Assembly (NCBI GenBank): GCA_030167145.1
Contig: CP126532.1
Span: forward strand, 2,580,001 to 2,612,000
DNA from: Ktedonobacterales bacterium
Lineage (GTDB): Bacteria; Chloroflexota; Ktedonobacteria; Ktedonobacterales; JADMIN01
Reading direction: 5' to 3'
Length of the DNA: 32,000 nt
Part shown: positions 2,629 through 31,570 of the stretch, piece by piece
Numbering within the stretch: position 1 is the stretch's first letter
How the letters are laid out: each line of letters starts with the position of its first letter
Notes under the pieces: model-generated
What the model was told of the DNA's origin: nothing
The model's input: the letters and a program-made list of their open reading frames with translations, nothing else
Database searches by the model: none
Translations under genes and position numbers: made by a program

Positions 2629-2695
2629 CCCGTGCGCACCTCCACTGCCCACCACCCCATTCGCCCCACTGTGCCGCTGGCATCCCGCCAGCCCT

Positions 2696-3270
2696 TCAGT
2701 GGGGCGGACATTCTTGTCTGCCCTCCATCTCTGTGGTGGGGCGGACATTCTTGTCTGCTCATGGCCGCGAAATCGGCAGAATCGGCAACTGCTCATCACA
2801 CACATGCGCGCGAAAATCGGCAGAATCGGCAACTGCCCTTCGTGTGTACAACACACAATTGCGGCGAAAACGGCGAAAATCTATCTGCCACCACCCATCT
2901 CTACCTCCACGATCCGCTCTGCATCGGATTACCCTCGGCTCTTCAGGCCGAGAACCCGCTTTACCACCCAGCTCGCTCTACGCGCAAATCAAAATATCGG
3001 CCATTTCGGCCACTGCCTGTGAGGAGGCAAGCCGTGCGCCATCTCAACCGAAAAATCGGCAGAATCGGCAACTCTGGCAACTGGTGGGACAGACATTCTT
3101 GTCTGTCCGCAATCGAAATACCGGCCACTCCGGCCATCGGCGATTTTGTGCAACTTCCAAATTTCGGCAGAATCGGCAACTGCCATTGCGTGCAACCTGG
3201 ACATTCATGCCCATCCCACCTGTGCTCCGGCCACTTATGGCCGAGAGCGCGGCCATTTCGGCCACTACCC
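2696..3270. repeat. Non-coding repeat cluster R1: 9-bp-periodic direct-repeat dimers plus three copies of a GACATTCTTGTC hairpin
   Basis: AAATCGGCAGAATCGGCAACTGC occurs at 2771-2793, 2815-2837, 3054-3076 and 3161-3183. ATCGGCCATTTCGGCCACTRC occurs at 2996-3017 and 3251-3269. CCGGCCACTCCGGCCATCGG occurs at 3122-3141. Hairpins GGGCGGACA-TTCT-TGTCTGCCC lie at 2703-2724, 2740-2761 and 3088-3109. The ORFs across this tract are repeat artefacts. Confidence 0.8.
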
Positions 3271-3284
3271 ACCGCCCACCTCAC

Positions 3285-3560
3285 TTATCCACATCTTGGC
3301 GACTTATCCACAATCCCTGTGGACACCCACCCGCCCGCTTATGTAGACCTCATTCCCACAAAAGTCCGGGGAAGTGTGACCGCTCCAGCGTGGATAAACA
3401 CCCGATTTCTGTGGACAAGTACCCCTGATTGTGCAAAACTCCGCCAATTTCGTAGAACAAGAGTTCCTCTGCCGTATCGCCTCTCGCGGCGCATTTTCGG
3501 TGGATAACCCGGTGGATAAATGGTGCCGAATGTGGATAACTCACACCCACCCGTGGACAG
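3285..3560. promoter_or_regulatory. DnaA-box cluster 1 (9 boxes in 276 bp)
   Basis: Perfect TTATCCACA at 3285-3293 and 3304-3312. Perfect complement TGTGGATAA at 3531-3539. Boxes with 1-2 mismatches: TGTGGACAC 3318-3326, CGTGGATAA 3389-3397, TGTGGACAA 3410-3418, GGTGGATAA 3499-3507 and 3511-3519, CGTGGACAG 3552-3560. Confidence 0.8.
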
Positions 3561-5308: not shown

Positions 5309-5682
5309 CTATCCACAATCCTGTGGATAGCACTGTAGATACCTGGTCGAAAACGCGCGTCAGTGCTAGAGCGCTATCCACATGCCAGTAGATAACCCGG
5401 TGGATGCCGCTGTGGACGGCCTGGGGACGGTGTGGAAACTCTCAAGTCCCATCCACCAGCCGTGTGGATGGCGTCGTGGACAGCCTGGGGACGATGTGGA
5501 GAAGCTGAAACACTTGTCCACATCCATCCACCAGCGGCCTCCAGTTATCCGAGCGATACACCAGCGTCATCCACAATCCACAGCCTGTTTCCACATCGTG
5601 GATAATCCATACAACTCTAGGATTGATGCGACCTTGCACCGCCAATTTTTGCCGGTGGCGTTAGTTATCCCCGCCATCCACA
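5309..5682. promoter_or_regulatory. DnaA-box cluster 2 (at least 12 good boxes plus weaker ones in 374 bp)
   Basis: CTATCCACA 5309-5317 and TGTGGATAG 5322-5330 form a perfect palindromic pair. Further boxes: CTATCCACA 5374-5382, TGTGGACGG 5411-5419, TGTGGAAAC 5431-5439, TGTGGATGG 5463-5471, CGTGGACAG 5475-5483, TGTGGAGAA 5495-5503, TTGTCCACA 5514-5522, TCATCCACA 5567-5575, CGTGGATAA 5597-5605, CCATCCACA 5674-5682. Weaker TGTGGAAA-type sites continue to about 5860. Confidence 0.8.
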
Positions 5683-6166: not shown

Positions 6167-6941
6167 TTCGTTAGCGCCAGCCGAATGCGCGCACTTCACA
6201 CACCTGTAGCGGTACGTTGTGCATGGTTGCCCGCGACGATTTCATCCAGCCGCCAGAGATGCGGCGTCGGATCTGGCGCAACGGAGCGTACTCTTAACAC
6301 ACCTGACGGCACGAATGGAGCCTGGCCGACAACGGCGGGCCTTACCAAAGGCAATTTCCAGGCATCCCATGGCTTCTCTGACGTGTGGGGAGGATGTCCA
6401 TTAGAGGAACGTGTGCGCACGCTGATCGCGATCTGCTCGCACGTATGAGCATCAGGCGCGGCGCATATCGAAACCTCGGCGCACATGCTGGTGGTAGACG
6501 CGCACTGTGTGGCCGTTGCCTACTTGTTGAGAATTTTTGAGTTTTTTCCAAGACGATGTGTATCTTTCGCGCTACTCCACCGCCCCGTGTTCGCGTATGC
6601 GCGCCTCAGGCGCGCTCGTAGGGAGTTCGCCCGGTGGATGCGCTTTCAGGAAGCGCCGTTGATGTTGATGCGGATCGCCGTCGCTGAGCCAGCGTGCCGC
6701 GGCGTGCATCCAGACCGCGATTTGCGGCGCATGACCTGATGTTATGGTCTGATGAAGGCGATTGTTTGCTTATGCTGAGTACCGCACGACAGTACAGCCG
6801 TGCGACTACGCGCTACTTTTCGCGATGTTCCGCGCTATGCGGTTGGTCCAGTGTATTGTGCTTTCCCATCGGGAGCGCTGGCGATCAGGCCAGCGCGACC
6901 CGGCTCGTATTCCGCATTGTTTGTTAACGCAGGAGGCCAGT

Positions 6942-9599
<2,658 letters not shown>

Positions 9600-10016: not shown

Positions 10017-11813
10017 TCAAGGTGTCGCATAGATCGCGAGATCAGTAAAATTGACGGTTGCCGCAGGCTCTACAGCCAGGCACAAGAACCCCGTCGTGTA
10101 TGTTGAATCGCTGGTACTGAAGACGAGCGCGCCATCGAAATAGAATGAAAACGCTGTACCGTCTACGATCAGATCCAATGTGTGTTTGCTGCTGACTGCG
10201 AAAGACGAGACGTGCCGTTGGACCAGAATTTGTCGGTTGCCGTTGGCGCTATAGCGATTAAACTGCCATTGACCGTTCGGATCCACCAGGAATGAATAGC
10301 CGCCTCGCCCGTTGTTAGCATCTGCTGCTGATTGCTGCTGAAACTTAAAGCCGAATTTTGCTGTTGTAGTTTGCCCCATTGGTTCTGCGTTCACCTGAGC
10401 GACATAGCTGGCTGGATACGACATGCCGGGAAGAGACGTCAGCACCGCTACCCCAAGGGGACAATTACAATCCGCATCGCTCATCACCAGCGCACCGTTT
10501 TCGCAACGCTGGTCTGCCTGCGAGTTCTGTGACCATTGGCCGCCCTGATTATCGCACGCTCCTGGAGCATTGGTGGTATACAATAAACGCCCAACAGGAA
10601 CGAGCGGTTTCACTGGCGCTGTCTTATTATTGAAAGTGGTTGCAGAAGGAGACGCATTTCCGTTTGGTGCATTTGCAGCGACTCGGAAGAACGAGCCGCC
10701 CTTCGCCAGCAATACGAGGAGTGCAACCAGTAGAACCGCAGCTACCGTTCCGCCGAGAAATACCCCATTGCTGCGCTGATTACGTCTGGAAGGCGCTAGT
10801 TGAGTTGCTCCAGGCAAATATTGCCCACTGGTTTCGTATGATACCCCGGCGGGCAGTGTTTGAGCGAAGTTTGGCGCATTGTCGGCAGTTGTGTTCTTGG
10901 GTTTCTCTGCCTGTGGCCGCAACTCTTCGCTCCATTCGCCGCGCAGCCCCGCTGCGAAGGCCCGCGCCAGCGCCGAGGCCGTAGCGAGACGATACTCCGG
11001 GCGCTTCGCCAGCGCCTTCATGATCGCCGCCTCCGCTGGCGCGGGTAGCTCTGGCCGTAGTCGCTGGGGCGGTGGTGGCGGATCCTGCACTTGTTGGCGG
11101 ATCAACTCGATCAGCGTGGTCGCCTCGAACGCCACATGGCCCGTCACCATCTCGTAGAGCACCATGCCCAGGCTGTAGGTGTCGGTGGCTGGTCCCACTT
11201 TTCCGCTGCTCACCTGTTCCGGCGACATGTACATTGGCGTGCCGAGCACCTGCCCCGTCGAGGTAAGTTTGGTGCTGGTCTCCGCCAGCAGCCGCACGAT
11301 ACCGAAGTCCGTAAGATATGCCTGTCCTTGCGAATCCAGTAGCACATTGCCGGACTTCACATCGCGGTGGATGATGTTCTTGTCGTGGGCATAGTCCAGG
11401 GCGCTCGCCAGTTGCGTCGCGATCCGCGAAGCTTCGTCCAGCGACAACCCACCAGGATGCGCCGCCAGGCCGTCGCTTAGCGTACCACCCGCGATATAGG
11501 GCAGCACCATGTAGGTGAAGCCCGCATCCTCACCCGAAGCCAGCAGCGCGAGGATGTGCGGATGCCGTAGCTGTTGCAGCGTCTCCGCTTCACGGCGGAA
11601 GCGCGCCCGAAAGTCGTCGCGCTCCTCAGGTGTCAATTGCCAGGGGAGGATCAGCAACTTGATTGCCGCCTGCTCTGGCAAGTCCGCGGATGCGGTGGTT
11701 CGTCTCCCGCGAAACACGGCTCCCGTCGCCCCTGTGCCAGCAAGCGCTTCCAAGATGTAGCCGCCCACCGTTTGCCCTATCAGCGCTTCCGGCCCTTGCC
11801 CACCTGGTCCCAT
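10017..11813 (-). CDS. Ser/Thr protein kinase, single TM, C-terminal extracytoplasmic jelly-roll/lectin-like domain (598 aa)
   Basis: Hanks kinase motifs are present: G-x-G-x-x-G region, AIKLL, HRDVKSGNVLL, DFGIV, GTPMYMSPE. TM helix VFLGGTVAAVLLVALLVLLA. The C-terminus reads GGYSFLVDPNGQWQFNRY...FYFDGALV. ATG at 11813 is preceded by GAGGAGG. Confidence 0.9.
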   Translation of the reverse strand: MGPGGQGPEALIGQTVGGYILEALAGTGATGAVFRGRRTTASADLPEQAAIKLLILPWQLTPEERDDFRARFRREAETLQQLRHPHILALLASGEDAGFTYMVLPYIAGGTLSDGLAAHPGGLSLDEASRIATQLASALDYAHDKNIIHRDVKSGNVLLDSQGQAYLTDFGIVRLLAETSTKLTSTGQVLGTPMYMSPEQVSSGKVGPATDTYSLGMVLYEMVTGHVAFEATTLIELIRQQVQDPPPPPQRLRPELPAPAEAAIMKALAKRPEYRLATASALARAFAAGLRGEWSEELRPQAEKPKNTTADNAPNFAQTLPAGVSYETSGQYLPGATQLAPSRRNQRSNGVFLGGTVAAVLLVALLVLLAKGGSFFRVAANAPNGNASPSATTFNNKTAPVKPLVPVGRLLYTTNAPGACDNQGGQWSQNSQADQRCENGALVMSDADCNCPLGVAVLTSLPGMSYPASYVAQVNAEPMGQTTTAKFGFKFQQQSAADANNGRGGYSFLVDPNGQWQFNRYSANGNRQILVQRHVSSFAVSSKHTLDLIVDGTAFSFYFDGALVFSTSDSTYTTGFLCLAVEPAATVNFTDLAIYATP

Positions 11814-11829
11814 TGCGTGTCCTCCTCTG

Positions 11830-13827
11830 CTATCTCTGCCCTTTGTGCCGTATTGCTTTGCGTCCGCGCTTCGCTTGCACGGCGACGAGGCCGGTTAAGA
11901 GGAGCGATGGCGCGAGTGGAACCGCTGGATACGGTAGCGCCGGGCCGATCGCATGTACGTGTTGCCCAGCAGGCGATGCGCCCCGCCCTTGAACGCCGTA
12001 GTTTTTCACATTCGAGCAATAATTGCCTGACGACTGATACCCGCTCACCTCCCATACTTCGATCTCGCGAAAGCCATTCGTGCCGCTGGAATCCGTCCCA
12101 TTCACCCGCACCGAAGTCACCGTGCGCGCGCCGAAGTTCACGTCCGCGCAGCGCGGACCGCCGCTCGCCATGTCAATCCCGGTGATCGCGCTGCCGTCGC
12201 TGAAATGCAGGTCTATCAGGTTGATCTGGTTGTTATCCGGCGAGTCCTGGAACCGATCCCATACCACCACGCGGTGAATTGTCTCTGGCCCTGGCCAGCT
12301 CAGGTCCACCTCCACCGGATGACAGCAGACCCATTGCTGGCTCAGGCTTCCATCCGCGACAATGCCGCTCACGCCGCCATCTGGCGAGGTGAGCGAGGCA
12401 TTCAGCGCAATGTCGCCGGTATAGTGCGGTGGCGCGGGTGTGTTGGTTGGCGTGGGGATATCAGTCGCTGTTGGTGTGGGGGTATCGGTTGGTGTCGCTG
12501 TTGGTGTGGGGGTATCGGTTGGTGTGACGCCGGGCGCCAGTGTCGGTGTGGCCGTTGGCGTCACGCCGGGCGGTAATGTTGATGTTGGTTGTCCGGGTTT
12601 TGGTGTCTTGGTTGGATGGGCCGTTTTGCTTCCACCGGCTTTCGTTGCCTGCCCTGGGGAGGATGTCAAGGATGCTTGTCCGGTGGGCGCGCCCTGGGTC
12701 GTCCTGAAGGGCAACCAATCTACACGGCCTCCCAGCGCCAATACCAGCAGCCCTGCCAGCACCAGCAATCCCACCGCCATGCGCAGGGCTGTGCCGGTGC
12801 AGCCGCCCCGCCGCCGTGTGGGCGGCGCCACTGCCCTCGGCGGTGGTTCGTAGGCCATCATCGTCGCCGCATTGCTCGCCGCGAGCATCTCTGGCGTCTG
12901 ATGCGCCTGCCCGTCTGGCAGCGTCCGCAGTTCCTCGGCCCATTCGCCACGCACGCCCATCGTGAAAGCCCGCGCGAGCGCCACCGTGGTGATAAATCGC
13001 GCGGCTGGCTCCTTTGCCAGCGCCTTCATGATCGCCGCCTCCGCTGGCGCGGGCAGCTCTGGCCGCAGTTGTCGGGGCGGCACGGGTGGTTGCTGCACCT
13101 GTAGCAGGATCAGTTGCACCAGCGAATCTGCTTGAAATGGCACCTGCCCAGTGACGAGTTGGTAGAGCAAGATCCCGAGGCTATAGGTATCCGCCGCTGG
13201 GCCAACTTTGTCGCCACGCGCCTGCTCCGGCGCCATGTACTCGAATGTGCCGAGCACCTTGCCCGTGGTGGTGTGCGAGACCTGCGTATCCGTCACGATG
13301 CGGGCGATGCTGAAGTCCGCCAGAAATACCTGCCCGTGCGCGTCGAGCAGCACGTTCTCTGGCTTGATGTCGCGGTGAATGACGTCCTTATCATGAGCGT
13401 AGTCCAGCGCACTGGCGAGTTGCGTTGCGATGCGCCCTGCTTCGTCCAGCGGCAGCCCATTTGGCGCGGCCCTCAGGCGTGTGCTCAGCGTATCGCCTTC
13501 CTTATACGGCAGCACGATATAGAGAAATCCTGTCGCGCTATCTTCACCGAACGCCAGCACTGGTAAGATATGCGGATGGCTCAGCCGCTGAAGGGTGCGC
13601 GCCTCGCGCAGGAACCGCTCGCGCAGGTCCGCTCGTTCATCCTGGCTAGCCAGCATCGGCAACAGCAAGAGTTTGATCGCCGCTTGCTCTGGCAGGTCGG
13701 CAGCCGCGCTCGTCCGCTGGCCAAGGTAGACCGCGCCGGAAAGACCCCTACCGAGTACACGTGCGAGCTGGTAGCCCGCCACTTCCTGCCCAACGAGGTC
13801 TTCGAGTCCCTGCCCACCTGGTCCCAT
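11830..13827 (-). CDS. Ser/Thr protein kinase paralog, single TM, Thr/Pro-rich linker and C-terminal discoidin/galactose-binding-like domain (665 aa)
   Basis: Kinase motifs: AIKLL, HRDIKPENVLL, DFSIA, GTFEYMAPE. TM helix ALRMAVGLLVLAGLLVLAL. The linker reads TPTATPTLAPGVTPTDTPTPTATPTDTPTPTATDIPTPTNTP. The C-terminal part (WDRFQDSPDNNQINLIDLHFSDGS...TNGFREIEVWEV) looks like an F5/8-type-C-like module. The stop lies 16 bp upstream of the next kinase start. Confidence 0.9.
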   Translation of the reverse strand: MGPGGQGLEDLVGQEVAGYQLARVLGRGLSGAVYLGQRTSAAADLPEQAAIKLLLLPMLASQDERADLRERFLREARTLQRLSHPHILPVLAFGEDSATGFLYIVLPYKEGDTLSTRLRAAPNGLPLDEAGRIATQLASALDYAHDKDVIHRDIKPENVLLDAHGQVFLADFSIARIVTDTQVSHTTTGKVLGTFEYMAPEQARGDKVGPAADTYSLGILLYQLVTGQVPFQADSLVQLILLQVQQPPVPPRQLRPELPAPAEAAIMKALAKEPAARFITTVALARAFTMGVRGEWAEELRTLPDGQAHQTPEMLAASNAATMMAYEPPPRAVAPPTRRRGGCTGTALRMAVGLLVLAGLLVLALGGRVDWLPFRTTQGAPTGQASLTSSPGQATKAGGSKTAHPTKTPKPGQPTSTLPPGVTPTATPTLAPGVTPTDTPTPTATPTDTPTPTATDIPTPTNTPAPPHYTGDIALNASLTSPDGGVSGIVADGSLSQQWVCCHPVEVDLSWPGPETIHRVVVWDRFQDSPDNNQINLIDLHFSDGSAITGIDMASGGPRCADVNFGARTVTSVRVNGTDSSGTNGFREIEVWEVSGYQSSGNYCSNVKNYGVQGRGASPAGQHVHAIGPALPYPAVPLAPSLLLTGLVAVQAKRGRKAIRHKGQR
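12466..12525. repeat. Perfect 2 x 30-bp tandem repeat inside the kinase Thr/Pro linker
   Basis: CGCTGTTGGTGTGGGGGTATCGGTTGGTGT at 12466-12495 is repeated exactly at 12496-12525. It encodes TPTDTPTPTA twice on the minus strand. Confidence 0.9.
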
Positions 13828-29070: not shown

Positions 29071-29120
29071 GGGATCTCTCCCCCCAACCCCCTCCCCTCG
29101 CAGGGGAGGGGGAGCAGAGG
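29071..29120. repeat. C-rich/G-rich hairpin element (copy 2, reverse orientation relative to 1378-1420)
   Basis: gggatctctccccccaaCCCCCTCCCCTcgcAGGGGAGGGGGagcagagg has a perfect 11-bp stem with a 3-nt loop. Confidence 0.55.
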
Positions 29121-29156
29121 CGGCCCGTCCTCGGCCATGATGCAGTTTTACAACTT

Positions 29157-30172
29157 GGGAGTTGTGCTAGTTCGTTGAGTTGACAAGAACGCCTCGGTTG
29201 GCTACAAGGGAACAAACTACACCGTTCCGTTGGGACCGACCGAGGTGATGTGGATGATACGCGATTTTGACGACTTCTGCACGTGGATGTATGTGCTCAT
29301 TAGCGACCTGTTCGTTGCGATTGCTCCGCTGGTCGCACGCCCCGGCCCGCTGCCGGTCTGCACCGATGCCGAACTGATCACGATGGCAATCGTCGGCGAA
29401 TGTGCTGGCTGGGACCAGGAGACCGTTCTCCTGAGCCGCTGGCAGGACCATCGCGACCTGTTTCCGCACCAGCCCGAACGCAGCCGCTTCAATCGCCGTC
29501 GGCGTGATCTGGCACCGGCCATCAACCTGGTGCGTCAAGCCGTCGTACAGGTGCTGGATCTCGCCCAGGACTCGCACTGTATCATCGATAGTCTGCCCAT
29601 CCCCGTGGTGCAGTTCTATTACGTGCCCCAGGCCAACTCCGACTGGAAGGCGGCAGGCGCCACCTTTGGCCATTGCTGCTCCAAGAAGCAGGCCATCTTT
29701 GGCTATAAACTGCATCTGCTGATCACCCAAGGCGGCGTCATTCGCGACTTCGCGCTGGCGCCCGCGCATGTCACCGACCGCGAAGTCGCCGGCGAATTGC
29801 TCCATGACCATACCCACCTGCTCGTACTCGCCGATAAAGGCTATATCAGCCACTCCCTGGCGGCTGACCTGCGCGCCGAGCGCCACCTCGCCCTTGTGAC
29901 CATCCCGCGCAGCAATCAGCGGGTGCAGCCCTCGGCGGCGTTTCGCCACCTCCATGCGCATCTGCGCCAACTGATCGAGACGGTCAATAGCCAATTAGCC
30001 CTCCAGTTCCCTATCGAGACCAACCATGCCCATAGCTTCTGGGGGCTGACCGCGCGGCTCTACACCAAACTGGCCGCCCATACCCTCTGTCTCTGGCTCA
30101 ATCGCCTGCTCGGGGTGGCTGAGGTCTTACATCTCAAGACGCTCGCCTTCCCCAACATCTAGCACAACTCCC
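29157..30172 (+). mobile_element. IS982-family insertion sequence (1016 bp)
   Basis: Perfect 14-bp terminal inverted repeats GGGAGTTGTGCTAG (29157-29170) and CTAGCACAACTCCC (30159-30172). Flanked by the direct repeat AACTT (29152-29156 and 30173-30177). A single transposase ORF ends inside the right repeat. Confidence 0.85.
29248..30162 (+). CDS. IS982-family DDE transposase
   Basis: DDFCTWM...CTDAELITMAIVGE...DSLPIPVVQFY...FGYKLHLLITQGGVIRDFALAPAHVTDREV...LLVLADKGYIS...IETVNSQL is typical of the IS982/DDE_Tnp_1-like family. The start is ATG 29248 or ATG 29254 (GAGGTG just upstream). The track start at 29230 is a TTG. Confidence 0.8.
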   Translation: MWMIRDFDDFCTWMYVLISDLFVAIAPLVARPGPLPVCTDAELITMAIVGECAGWDQETVLLSRWQDHRDLFPHQPERSRFNRRRRDLAPAINLVRQAVVQVLDLAQDSHCIIDSLPIPVVQFYYVPQANSDWKAAGATFGHCCSKKQAIFGYKLHLLITQGGVIRDFALAPAHVTDREVAGELLHDHTHLLVLADKGYISHSLAADLRAERHLALVTIPRSNQRVQPSAAFRHLHAHLRQLIETVNSQLALQFPIETNHAHSFWGLTARLYTKLAAHTLCLWLNRLLGVAEVLHLKTLAFPNI

Positions 30173-30220
30173 AACTTAATCGGGTAATGGTAGACTGACC
30201 TCCAAAAAGGAGGTGTGCAG

Positions 30221-31271
30221 ATGCGTCAACGTCGCTTGGCCCTGACAGCGGGGCAACGTCGCGAGTTAGTACAGATGCGTGACCGTGATCGTCGCGCCTA
30301 TTTGCGGGAACGGGCCGCCGCGCTGCTCAAAATCGCGGAGGGCCGCTCGGTACGAGCGGTCGCCCTCCGCGGGCTGCACCGCCGCCGCAAGCCTGACACG
30401 GTCTATGGCTGGCTCAATGCCTACCTGACCGGTGGCGTGGCGGCGCTGGTGCAGCGTGCGCGCGGCCACCGGGGTTTTTCCCCCTCAGCAGGGGCGCGAA
30501 TTGCTCCAGGTGCTGCACCAAGCGCCTGAACGCTTTGCCGTGGCGCGTGCGCGCTGGCGGTTGGTGGACTTGCGGCAGGTGCTTCCCTGGTTAGCGCACT
30601 ACACCTTAGCCGGGATCTGGCGCGCCTTGCGGCGGCTGGGGGGTCGCACCAAACGCGGACGGCTCAGTGTCCACAGTCCCGATCCGCACTACGCTGAGAA
30701 GTGCTTTGCCATTGAGCAGGTCTGTGCGCTGGCCCAGCAGCAGCCGCAGCGGGTGCGGGTGTTCTACGGCGACGAATTCAGCCTGTATCGCCAGCCGAGC
30801 CTGGCGGCGCGCTTTGCGCCGCGTGGGCACCGGCCCAAGGCGCGGCTCGCACCCCGCGCCACCACCCGCTACCGCGTCAGTGGGGCGCTGGATGTCGTCA
30901 GTGGCCAGGTGCACTACACCACCGGCGCCAAGATGGGGGTCAAGGGCCTCTGCGCCTTCCTGGCGCAGTTGCGCGCCCGCTCCCCCCACCACCGGCTGGT
31001 CCTGATCTGGGACAACTGGCCGGTCCACCAGCACCCCGATGTGCTCGCCCAAGCCGCGGCGTTACACATTCGGCTCCTCTGGCTGCCGACCTATGCGCCT
31101 TGGACCAATCCGATCGAAAAGCTCTGGCGCTGGCTCAAGCAGACGCTGCTGCATCACCACCGTCTCGCCGACCGCTGGGACGACTTGAAAGGCGCGGCGC
31201 TCGCCTTTCTCGACCAGTTCGCCACCGACTCATCGGCGCTCCTGCGCTATGTTGGCCTATTACCCGATTAA
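30221..31271 (+). pseudogene. IS630-family transposase, split into two frames (+1 shift at a G4T5C5 tract)
   Basis: The first frame (30221-30529) encodes an HTH region (RELVQMRDRDRRAYLRERAAALLKIAEGRSVRAVA..., GWLNAYLTGGVAAL). The +1 frame, from about 30480 to 31271, encodes the DDE_3 core (VFYGDEFSL...IWDNWPVHQ...LPTYAPWTNPIEKLWRWLK). Skipping one base in 30471-30484 gives a continuous ~349-aa protein (...RGHRGFPPQQGRELLQVL...). ATG at 30221 is preceded by AAGGAGGTG. Confidence 0.75.
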
Positions 31272-31299
31272 GTTGTAAAACTGCATTATGGCCGACGCA

Positions 31300-31570
31300 C
31301 AAGGGTAGTGGCATGAATGCCAGAGTGGCCGATGTAGCCGATATTCCCGGAAGGCAGACAGGAATGTTTGCCCTATGAGGGCAGTGGCCGGAGTGGCCGA
31401 TTTTTGACTTGGCGGGATGGATATGGCCGAAATGGCCGATTTTGCAATACGTGCATGATGCAGTTGCCGGAGTTGCCAGCGAGACGCTGGCGCTCCATGC
31501 GCGAGTGGCCGAAATGGCCGAAATGGCCGAAATGGCCGATGTGGCTGATTTGGCTGATTTGGTTGATGGT
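31300..31570. repeat. Non-coding repeat cluster R2: the same 9-bp-periodic family as R1, in reverse-complement orientation, including a 7-unit tandem array
   Basis: 7 x 9 bp at 31506-31568: TGGCCGAAA x3, TGGCCGATG, TGGCTGATT x2, TGGTTGATG. Dimers: TGGCCGATGTAGCCGATA 31326-31343, TGGCCGGAGTGGCCGATT 31385-31402, TGGCCGAAATGGCCGATT 31424-31441, TTGCCGGAGTTGCCAGCG 31464-31481. Hairpin GGCAGACA-GGAA-TGTTTGCC at 31353-31372. Palindrome TGGCATGAATGCCA at 31309-31322. Confidence 0.8.

What the first reader, a model, noticed from the sequence alone, without database searches (positions are those of the whole stretch)
31300..31570. Second cluster of the 9-bp repeat family, in inverted orientation 26-28 kb from the first, including a 7-unit head-to-tail array
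R2 is built from the reverse complements of the R1 units. GCAGTGGCCGGAGTGGCCGAT and TGGCCGAAATGGCCGAT correspond to ATCGGCCATTTCGGCCACTGC in R1. GCAGTTGCCGGAGTTGCC corresponds to GGCAGAATCGGCAACTGC. It also has one reverse-oriented copy of the GACA-loop-TGTC hairpin. It contains the longest array: seven contiguous 9-mers that grade from TGGCCGAAA to TGGTTGATG (31506-31568). Before the IS insertions, R2 extended leftward to about 29131. The two clusters therefore bracket 3.3-29.1 kb as inverted arrays, and only R1 is adjacent to DnaA boxes. Possibilities include paired protein-binding arrays (centromere-like or nucleoid-organising), boundaries of an ancient inversion or island, or simply a dispersed intergenic repeat family. 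A run of 9-mers with GGCC cores could also form alternative GGCC:GGCC hairpins if transcribed.
Basis: partly seen in the sequence, partly recalled or inferred. Interest (0 to 1): 0.65.

Follow-up and report, generated by a model that had tools for sequence, protein, structure and literature searches.

The report
Mosaic short-repeat cluster near replication origin
The second repeat cluster is real and is a reversed relative of the first one beside the replication origin, but it looks most like a lineage-specific patch of non-coding "junk-type" mosaic repeats (short direct repeats plus a REP-like hairpin) rather than a proven origin-organising device.

Summary
R2 (31289-31568, plus 7 bp left of an IS at 29131-29137) consists of 9-bp-period units, two small palindromes and a 7-unit array. 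All of them are reverse complements of motifs in R1 (2684-3275). The dimer motif occurs 11 times against 0.25 expected, only in R1 (all minus) and R2 (all plus).

New findings:
- R1 and R2 share collinear modules (dimer, hairpin H1, dimer, then H2 and a palindromic unit pair). One alignment runs across the IS630-like element, which therefore inserted at the TA of CGGCCA-TA-TGGCCG.
- H1 belongs to a REP-like hairpin family, GT(G/A)GG-GCRGACATTCYTGTCTGCC, found dispersed in unrelated contigs.
- The nearest relative keeps portal gene, DnaA boxes and rho in the same order but has no R1.
- In 68 kb of the source genome (a Ktedonobacterales MAG, 5.07 Mb) only R1 and R2 carry the family. They straddle a GC-skew minimum with two DnaA-box clusters.
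- No coding or Rfam signal was found.

Best reading (about 0.5): a lineage-specific interspersed mosaic repeat (BIME/REP-like), with the array grown by slippage and now decaying. An origin-proximal protein-binding array (about 0.2) is not excluded, because a whole-genome census could not be run.

The parts
29131..29137 (+). TCGGCCA, the left half of a palindromic unit pair (CGGCCA-TA-TGGCCG) split by the IS630-like insertion; leftmost remnant of R2
   Evidence: alignment of R1 3197-3245 with reverse-complemented R2 crosses the IS junction. R1 homologue CGGCCACTTATGGCCG at 3229-3245. Sequence read.
29140..31286 (+). IS630-like element (HTH gene 30221-30529, DDE_3 gene 30501-31271) flanked by TG/TA. 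It carries a nested IS5-like element (29157-30172, DDE_Tnp_1) flanked by AACTT. It interrupts R2 and is not part of the repeat family.
   Evidence: Terminal inverted repeats (I5). Pfam hits. Sequence. Single-copy protein clusters.
31289..31295 (+). TGGCCGA, the right half of the split palindromic unit pair
31310..31321 (.). Palindrome H2, GGCATGAATGCC (R1 counterpart GGACATTCATGCC at 3199-3211)
31326..31343 (+). Degenerate 9-bp dimer TGGCCGATG TAGCCGATA
   Evidence: R1 2993-3014 against 31345-31324, 86%
31353..31373 (+). Hairpin H1 (GGCAGACAGGAATGTTTGCCC), the reversed copy of the R1 hairpins at 2700-2722, 2737-2759 and 3085-3108. It belongs to a REP-like family, GT(G/A)GG-GCRGACATTCYTGTCTGCC.
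   Evidence: Same element dispersed in unrelated contigs. REPIN-like inverted doublets in L084.
31381..31401 (+). Dimer GCAGTGGCCGGAGTGGCCGAT (GGCC subtype)
   Evidence: D3, I1, I13
31420..31441 (+). Dimer GATATGGCCGAAATGGCCGAT (GGCC subtype)
   Evidence: D3, I12
31460..31478 (+). Dimer GCAGTTGCCGGAGTTGCC (GGCA subtype, counterpart of the four R1 copies of AATCGGCAGAATCGGCAACTGC)
   Evidence: R1 3067-3083 against 31477-31461, 94%
31475..31491 (.). Local palindrome GCCAGCG-AGA-CGCTGGC
   Evidence: Read; stem present in both folds
31506..31568 (+). Seven contiguous 9-mers: TGGCCGAAA x3, TGGCCGATG, TGGCTGATT x2, TGGTTGATG
2684..3275 (-). R1, the partner cluster in opposite orientation: 3 H1 hairpins, 4 GGCA-type dimers, GGCC-type dimers, one GGCG-type dimer, H2, and a palindromic unit pair
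3285..3539 (.). Context: first DnaA-box cluster (7 boxes), starting 10 bp after R1. A second cluster lies at 5309-5605.
   Evidence: 17 hits against 2.6 expected; GC-skew sign change; conserved in L008

Best explanation
R2 is a second copy, in reverse orientation, of a lineage-specific non-coding mosaic repeat. It resembles the interspersed REP/BIME-type repeats of other bacteria.

Anatomy: the building block is about 80 nt. It is a direct-repeat dimer of 9-bp units (core CGGC every 9 bp, ending ...ACTGC), then a REP-like hairpin H1 (GTGG/ATAG head plus GGCRRACA-TTCY-TGTCTGCC), then a second dimer. This is followed by a small palindrome H2 and an inverted unit pair, CGGCCA-TA-TGGCCG.

Proposed history: such blocks are copied as whole pieces into permissive intergenic DNA. 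The route is inferred, either hairpin-directed mobilisation as for REP/REPIN elements or duplication/gene conversion. Locally they gain and lose 9-bp units by replication slippage. The 7-unit array is such an expansion. It is now decaying by C-to-T changes, and a mutated unit has itself been duplicated. An IS630-like element later landed in the TA of the inverted unit pair.

Function: any function is probably generic (hairpins or protein landing sites) rather than a dedicated origin device.

Shown: the anatomy, the collinearity, the IS target, absence from the relative, and dispersal of the hairpin family in other genomes. Inferred: the copying mechanism, the slippage, and the lack of a specific function.
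For: 1. Collinear modules, not just shared words. R1 3063-3136 aligns with R2 31402-31326 (82 nt, 68%) and R1 3197-3245 aligns with 31323 to 29130 (80%).
2. Units are copied as pieces. The 22-23-nt string AAATCGGCAGAATCGGCAACTGC recurs up to four times in R1 (D4). The two halves of a dimer share their subtype in 11 of 12 dimers (permutation p=1.3e-4), which is not expected for independently maintained half-sites.
3. H1 belongs to a hairpin family with a GT(G/A)GG head. This family occurs many times in unrelated contigs: L077 has 7 copies in 9.9 kb, all in gene gaps and one orientation, and L076, L069/L080 and L083 also carry it. In L084 it occurs as REPIN-like inverted doublets in a 138-nt tandem.
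4. The closest relative has the same portal/DnaA-box/rho arrangement without any R1.
5. The array grades from perfect to mutated units, and the mutated unit TGGCTGATT is duplicated.
6. An IS is tolerated inside R2.
7. No Pfam hit on overlapping ORFs, spacings that are not multiples of 3, and no Rfam family.
8. Folding excess is equal on both strands (z -3.8 and -3.5), so it reflects DNA palindromes rather than a strand-specific RNA.
Against: - Dispersal in the source genome is not demonstrated. In 68 kb (window -19176..48790) the family occurs only in R1 and R2. That was 2 of the 28 intergenic spacers of at least 100 bp counted on the first 47 kb.
- Both clusters lie within 29 kb on either side of the origin-like region.
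- R1 starts 10 bp from the first DnaA box. A random insertion would land there only about 5-10% of the time.
- In this genome H1 is seen only inside the two clusters.
- No RAYT-type or other mobilising gene was seen in the 68 kb.
- The 9-bp dimers themselves were not found as a multi-copy family anywhere else.
Confidence: 0.5

Rival explanations
1. Origin-proximal binding arrays. The 9-bp direct repeats, in dimers and one 7-mer array, are landing sites for a lineage-specific DNA-binding protein that coats tandem sites cooperatively, as ribbon-helix-helix centromere-binding proteins or MetJ do on tandem boxes. The sites are placed on both sides of oriC with polarity following replication direction, and serve origin organisation, segregation or initiation control.
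For: - R1 abuts the first DnaA-box cluster, and R2 lies 28 kb away across the GC-skew minimum.
- Strand polarity is strict: 6 of 6 minus in R1 and 5 of 5 plus in R2, so the G-rich strand is the leading strand in both.
- No other copies occur in 68 kb.
- A CGGC core is kept at an exact 9-bp phase while neighbouring bases vary.
Against: - The closest relative, with the same origin layout, has no equivalent array within 15 kb.
- The halves of dimers co-vary and long identical strings recur, pointing to copying rather than site-by-site selection.
- Core positions in the array decay (GGCC to GGCT to GGTT).
- An IS is tolerated inside R2.
- The clusters are mixed with a REP-like hairpin that is dispersed in other genomes.
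- No partition or other dedicated DNA-binding gene lies next to either cluster.
- Two clusters give only a 50% chance test of polarity.
Confidence: 0.2
2. A two-copy event, not a family. A block of a few hundred bp of origin-adjacent non-coding DNA was duplicated once in inverted orientation onto the other replichore, for example during an origin-spanning rearrangement. The copies then diverged, with internal duplications in R1 and slippage in R2.
For: - The right half of R1 (about 2985-3250) is partly collinear with reverse-complemented R2.
- Only two clusters occur in 68 kb.
- The inverted arrangement around the origin fits the common symmetric-inversion geometry.
Against: - Identity is patchy (68-88%) with reshuffled module order and different subtype composition: R1 is mostly GGCA type, R2 mostly GGCC type.
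- The H1 component belongs to a family that spreads in other genomes.
- Synteny at the R1 side is unbroken relative to L008.
Confidence: 0.15
3. Operator sites of a transcription factor that controls neighbouring genes. Before the IS insertion, R2 lay upstream of the M20 peptidase gene.
For: With the IS removed, R2 occupies the 5' region of the M20 gene (start 29048 in the JGI gene call). Tandem short boxes resemble some operators.
Against: R1 lies between the 3' ends of convergent genes, where no promoter is expected. A span of 270-650 bp holding 5-10 sites is far more than an operator needs. The consensus scan finds promoter-like sites only at chance level (1 found against 0.9 expected in shuffles).
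Confidence: 0.05
4. A structured non-coding RNA or a transcription terminator made from GGCC:GGCC hairpins.
For: Folding is more stable than in shuffles (z about -3.5 to -4). One terminator-like site lies at 31385-31399.
Against: - The excess stability is the same on both strands.
- There is no Rfam match.
- The GGCA and GGCG subtypes cannot form the GGCC hairpin.
- The stems are only 4 bp long.
- The terminator-like site is on the strand opposite to the flanking toxin-antitoxin genes.
Confidence: 0.03

Closest known systems
REP / BIME (bacterial interspersed mosaic elements) and REPINs of Proteobacteria
   Same: Extragenic location. A mosaic of a short imperfect palindrome with other short conserved motifs in variable order. 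The hairpin has a GT(G/A)G-type head (from my own recollection of the REP definition). The same hairpin forms inverted doublets in another contig (L084). Sequences are lineage-specific.
   Different: - The dominant motif here is a 9-bp direct-repeat dimer, not a palindrome.
- High copy number is not shown (2 clusters in 68 kb).
- No RAYT gene was seen.
- The organism is a Ktedonobacterales (Chloroflexota) MAG.
STRR (short tandemly repeated repetitive heptamers of cyanobacteria) and other intergenic micro/minisatellites (VNTR)
   Same: Short units repeated head to tail in intergenic DNA. There are graded, slippage-like arrays and several unit subtypes.
   Different: The unit is 9 bp. It is mostly present as dimers embedded in a larger module with hairpins. 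No copy-number variation was observable, because the only other sample has the identical sequence.
Centromere-like or iteron arrays bound cooperatively by small DNA-binding proteins (for example plasmid parC/parS repeat arrays, tandem met boxes)
   Same: Contiguous short direct repeats of 2-7 units, an exact phase, and a position near a replication origin.
   Different: There is no adjacent partition or initiator gene. The arrays are not conserved in the nearest relative. The units are decaying and an IS is inserted. Binding is untested.
Origin-proximal chromosomal site families (parS, RacA ram sites)
   Same: They lie on both sides of oriC within tens of kb.
   Different: Those sites are palindromes spread over hundreds of kb and are conserved among relatives. 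Here the units are polar direct repeats in two compact clusters.

Membership tests
REP/BIME-type interspersed mosaic repeats | Extragenic, non-coding | tested here: met
   Both clusters lie between called genes. The overlapping ORFs have no Pfam hit, and copy spacings are not multiples of 3.
REP/BIME-type interspersed mosaic repeats | Short imperfect palindrome as core unit, combined with other conserved motifs in mosaic order | tested here: met
   Hairpin H1 (8-9 bp stem, 4-6 nt loop) is flanked by dimers, with H2 also present. Modules are collinear between R1 and R2. The most frequent motif, however, is a direct repeat.
REP/BIME-type interspersed mosaic repeats | Many copies dispersed round the chromosome | tested here: inconclusive
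   Only 68 kb of the 5.07-Mb genome could be read, and it holds 2 clusters. The source genome is absent from the searchable collections. The H1 hairpin is dispersed in other genomes.
REP/BIME-type interspersed mosaic repeats | Associated RAYT (Y1 transposase) gene in the genome | not testable with these tools
   None is present in the 68 kb read (gene lists).
Centromere-like / iteron arrays | Adjacent gene for the cognate binding protein (ParB/ParR/Rep type) | tested here: not met
   Neighbours are a portal-like gene, an ArsR-type HTH gene, unknowns, DUF6941, a DUF433/DUF5615 pair, an M20 peptidase and the ISs.
Centromere-like / iteron arrays | Array of near-identical contiguous repeats kept under selection and present in relatives | tested here: not met
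   Only 3 perfect units, with the rest graded. They are absent at the orthologous origin of L008.
Centromere-like / iteron arrays | Specific protein binding | not testable with these tools
   This needs an experiment.
oriC functional elements (DnaA boxes, DnaA-trios, unwinding element) | Conserved position within the origin of related genomes | tested here: not met
   The DnaA-box clusters are conserved in L008, but the R1 repeats are not.
MITE | Defined length with terminal inverted repeats and target-site duplication | tested here: not met
   Neither cluster has terminal inverted repeats or a duplication. The only such structures belong to the two IS elements.
Structured RNA family (Rfam) | Match to a curated covariance model | tested here: not met
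   No match at gathering threshold. The best permissive hit has E=0.37.

The most novel reading that the evidence does not exclude
In this uncultured Ktedonobacterales lineage, polar arrays of 9-bp direct repeats placed on both sides of oriC, with orientation following replication direction, are the binding sites of an unknown protein. That protein organises, anchors or regulates the origin region. This would be a non-palindromic, repeat-array alternative to parS- or ram-type origin sites.
Probability: 0.18. Interest if true: 0.65.

Novelty: new member of a known kind. Interest (0 to 1): 0.35.

Why it matters
If it is an ordinary interspersed mosaic repeat, its value is mainly descriptive. It would be the first description of such a family in a Ktedonobacteria-like genome, it shows that a REP-like hairpin with a nearly identical 25-nt sequence occurs in unrelated contigs, and it warns against reading origin-adjacent repeats as origin elements. 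If the origin-flanking reading is right, it would point to a new kind of origin-proximal binding array in a sporulating, filamentous Chloroflexota lineage whose chromosome biology is unknown. A simple genome scan and a pull-down would settle this.

Tried and rejected
- Genome collection scan for GCAGTGGCCGRARTGGCCGAT. It gave 5 single hits: 4 in coding sequence (chance) and 1 lone intergenic copy in a planctomycete-like contig. The source genome is not in that collection.
- Metagenome scan for ATCGGCMRWWTCGGCMACTGC. It gave 47 single hits, nearly all coding (for example one Acidobacteria gene family) and none multi-copy. The source contig is not in the collection either. L038/L045 carry one copy upstream of dnaB near LexA-like and DnaA-like boxes. 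I judged this uninformative.
- Protein search with a synthetic six-frame translation of R1+R2, meant to catch spurious ORFs over other copies. It returned nothing, not even the window's own ORF, so the search was wasted.
- Kinase-profile search for same-genome paralogues to sample other loci. None appeared in the top 120, but it gave the taxonomic placement (Ktedonobacterales).
- HMMER search of the R1 translation against 1.8 billion representatives. It found only itself, one H1-containing ORF and one low-complexity protein. It does not even detect R2, so it has no census value.
- IS copies as stepping stones. Both ISs are single-copy.
- Walking along the genome with cluster look-ups.
- Viral scans for dimers and array. 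Only chance-level single hits or none.
- BLAST against plasmids and phages. The only hit was an unrelated 9-bp tandem array (GGCCGACGT x22) in Burkholderia.
- Rfam and literature string searches. Nothing found.
- Coding reading: rejected.
- Inversion breakpoint at R1: rejected by synteny with L008.

Full report
**1. Observation**

The stretch 31300-31570 reads as described. Tandem Repeats Finder reports a period-9 array at 31506-31567. Read directly it is TGGCCGAAA x3, TGGCCGATG, TGGCTGATT x2, TGGTTGATG (31506-31568). TGGCCGAWW occurs 11 times in the window against 0.97 expected. A stricter two-unit pattern, [GT]GCCG[AG]N3[GT]GCCG[AG], occurs 11 times against 0.25 expected. All six hits in R1 (2773-3178) are on the minus strand and all five in R2 (31386-31539) on the plus strand. 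The repeat finder pairs R1 and R2 as inverted repeats of up to 35 nt at 80% and 21 nt at 95%.

**2. Surroundings**

Left of R2 lies an IS630-like element (29140-31286; HTH and DDE_3 genes). Its left end carries a nested IS5-like element (29157-30172). To the right lie the 3' ends of a DUF5615/DUF433 pair on the minus strand. R1 lies between the stop of a portal-like gene (2628) and a cluster of seven DnaA boxes (3285-3539). A second DnaA-box cluster is at 5309-5605. GC skew over 68 kb changes from about -0.17 on the left to +0.04 and rising on the right, with the cumulative minimum in the window. This is very probably the replication origin, and R1 and R2 lie on opposite replichores.

**3. Source**

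The window is bases 2,580,001-2,612,000 of a 5,069,600-bp metagenome contig (JGI 3300045419, Ga0494333_323). The same genome is in NCBI as a Ktedonobacterales MAG (locus tags OJF49_). The nearest relative found has a Rho protein only 62% identical.

**4. Anatomy beyond shared words**

I removed the IS in silico and aligned R1 with reverse-complemented R2.
- R1 3197-3245 aligns with R2 from 31323 across the IS junction to 29130 (49 nt, 80%, E=3e-5).
- The IS630-like element therefore inserted at the TA of an inverted unit pair, CGGCCA-TA-TGGCCG. The R1 homologue is CGGCCACTTATGGCCG at 3229-3245.
- A second collinear block, dimer, hairpin H1, dimer, aligns R1 3063-3136 with R2 31402-31326 (82 nt, 68%). 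The same module recurs twice more in R1.

The clusters are therefore mosaics of a composite module of about 80 nt, plus a small palindrome H2 (GGCATGAATGCC, 31310-31321) and the inverted unit pair.

**5. How the units behave**

- The 22-23-nt string AAATCGGCAGAATCGGCAACTGC recurs in R1 (D4).
- The two halves of each dimer share their subtype (GGCA, GGCC or GGCG) in 11 of 12 dimers (permutation p=1.3e-4). This is expected if dimers arise by duplication of a 9-mer or are copied whole. It is not expected if half-sites are maintained independently.
- The array runs from perfect to progressively mutated units, and one mutated unit is itself duplicated. That is typical of slippage followed by decay.

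**6. The hairpin is a known type of thing**

A scan of viral contigs with GCRGACATTCYTGTCTGC found loci with several copies, each preceded by GGTGGG, GTAGG or similar.
- L077 has 7 copies in 9.9 kb, all in one orientation and all in the gaps between genes.
- A profile-free HMMER search with the translated R1 picked up one foreign ORF. Its DNA (L084) holds four 138-nt tandem units, each with two inverted H1 copies, a REPIN-like doublet.

H1 therefore belongs to a REP-like hairpin family that is dispersed in other genomes. The GT(A/G)G-head criterion for REPs comes from my own recollection, not from a test made here.

**7. Conservation**

In the relative's contig L008 the portal-like gene is followed after about 160 bp by the DnaA-box cluster. 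A second cluster and rho follow in the same order and orientation as in the window. There is no R1-like repeat and no dimer motif in 15.5 kb. Two conclusions follow. The repeats are a lineage-specific addition and not a conserved origin component. R1 is not an inversion breakpoint relative to this relative.

**8. Census**

The source genome is absent from the searchable genome and metagenome collections.
- The family occurs only in R1 and R2, which is 2 of 28 spacers of at least 100 bp in the first 47 kb.
- Zero further clusters in about 66 kb bounds the density at roughly one per 22 kb, or fewer than about 230 genome-wide. This does not decide between a dispersed family and an origin-restricted pair.
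- A short-read assembly of the same strain is identical over R2, so it gives no copy-number information.
- Its neighbouring contig ends at window 2836, exactly at the end of an R1 dimer (derived). I cannot explain this with the repeats visible here.

**9. Not coding, not a known RNA**

ORFs across R1 and R2 have no Pfam match, and the repeat copies fall in different frames. Rfam gives nothing. Both strands fold better than shuffles to the same degree (z -3.8 and -3.5). This reflects DNA palindromes. The GGCA and GGCG subtypes cannot form the GGCC:GGCC pairing.

**10. Verdict**

The most likely reading (about 0.5) is a lineage-specific interspersed mosaic repeat of the REP/BIME kind, with a slippage-grown and decaying 9-mer array, into which an IS later inserted. 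The strongest rival (about 0.2) is an origin-flanking array of protein-binding sites. It is supported by position, strict polarity and absence elsewhere in 68 kb. It is weakened by absence in the relative, by copy-like behaviour, by decay and by IS tolerance. A single inverted duplication (about 0.15) is also possible. A whole-genome scan would decide among these.

Noticed in passing
window 3285-3539 and 5309-5605; L008 1240-1520 and 6501-6613: Two DnaA-box clusters (7 boxes each with at most 1 mismatch) flank three small genes and sit at a GC-skew sign change. This is a probable bipartite oriC that is not next to dnaA. It lies next to a portal-like gene, and the arrangement is conserved in the nearest relative.
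   Followed up: partly
L077 (7 copies), L076, L069/L080, L083, L073-L075; L084 3080-3560; window 2700-2759, 3085-3108, 31353-31373: A hairpin of about 25 nt, GGTGGG/GTAGG-GCRGACATTCYTGTCTGCC, is nearly identical in contigs of very different origin and GC content. In L077 it sits in almost every gap between genes, in one orientation. In L084 it forms inverted doublets inside a 138-nt tandem repeat. I found no published description by sequence-string search.
   Followed up: partly
window 29138-31288: Nested insertion. An IS5-like element (29157-30172, flanked by AACTT) sits inside the left end of an IS630-like element (29140-31286, flanked by TG/TA). The IS630-like element itself sits in the TA of a palindromic repeat unit. 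Both ISs appear to be single-copy in the genome.
   Followed up: yes
window 29075-29118 and 1378-1420; L008 1085-1125: A different palindromic element, CTCTCCCC...CCCCTCCCC-N5-GGGGAGGGG. One copy lies just upstream of the M20 peptidase gene, one lies inside the 5' part of the portal-like gene, and one follows the portal gene stop in the relative. This looks like a second, older repeat family.
   Followed up: no
window 2836 (end of Logan contig SRR22113990_12193): The short-read contig of the same strain stops exactly at the 3' end of the second GGCA-type dimer in R1. The repeats visible here share at most 23 nt, which is below the assembler's word size as I recall it. This could hint at longer identical copies elsewhere or at population variation.
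   Followed up: partly
window 10017-13827: Two tandem paralogous Ser/Thr kinase genes (61% identical over the kinase domain; 71-74% DNA identity over more than 500 nt). The second kinase gene contains a perfect 30-bp tandem duplication at 12464-12525.
   Followed up: no
window 6762-9599: Rho has a long N-terminal extension. The ORF is 945 aa, the JGI aa, and the ATPase domain occupies residues 676-882. A non-coding leader of about 1.6 kb precedes the JGI start.
   Followed up: no
L045 7700-7900 and L038: In a high-GC contig, the spacer upstream of dnaB holds one copy of AATCGGCCGATTCGGCCACTGC. It lies between a LexA-box-like GAACATCTGTTCG and DnaA-box-like TGTGGAT/TGTCCACA. A homologous contig has the same arrangement. 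This may be coincidence.
   Followed up: no
L068 1476-1671 (Burkholderia stagnalis NZ_CP156686.1): An array of 22 copies of the 9-bp unit GGCCGACGT. It resembles the R2 array only by composition, which shows how readily GGCCGA-type 9-mers expand.
   Followed up: partly
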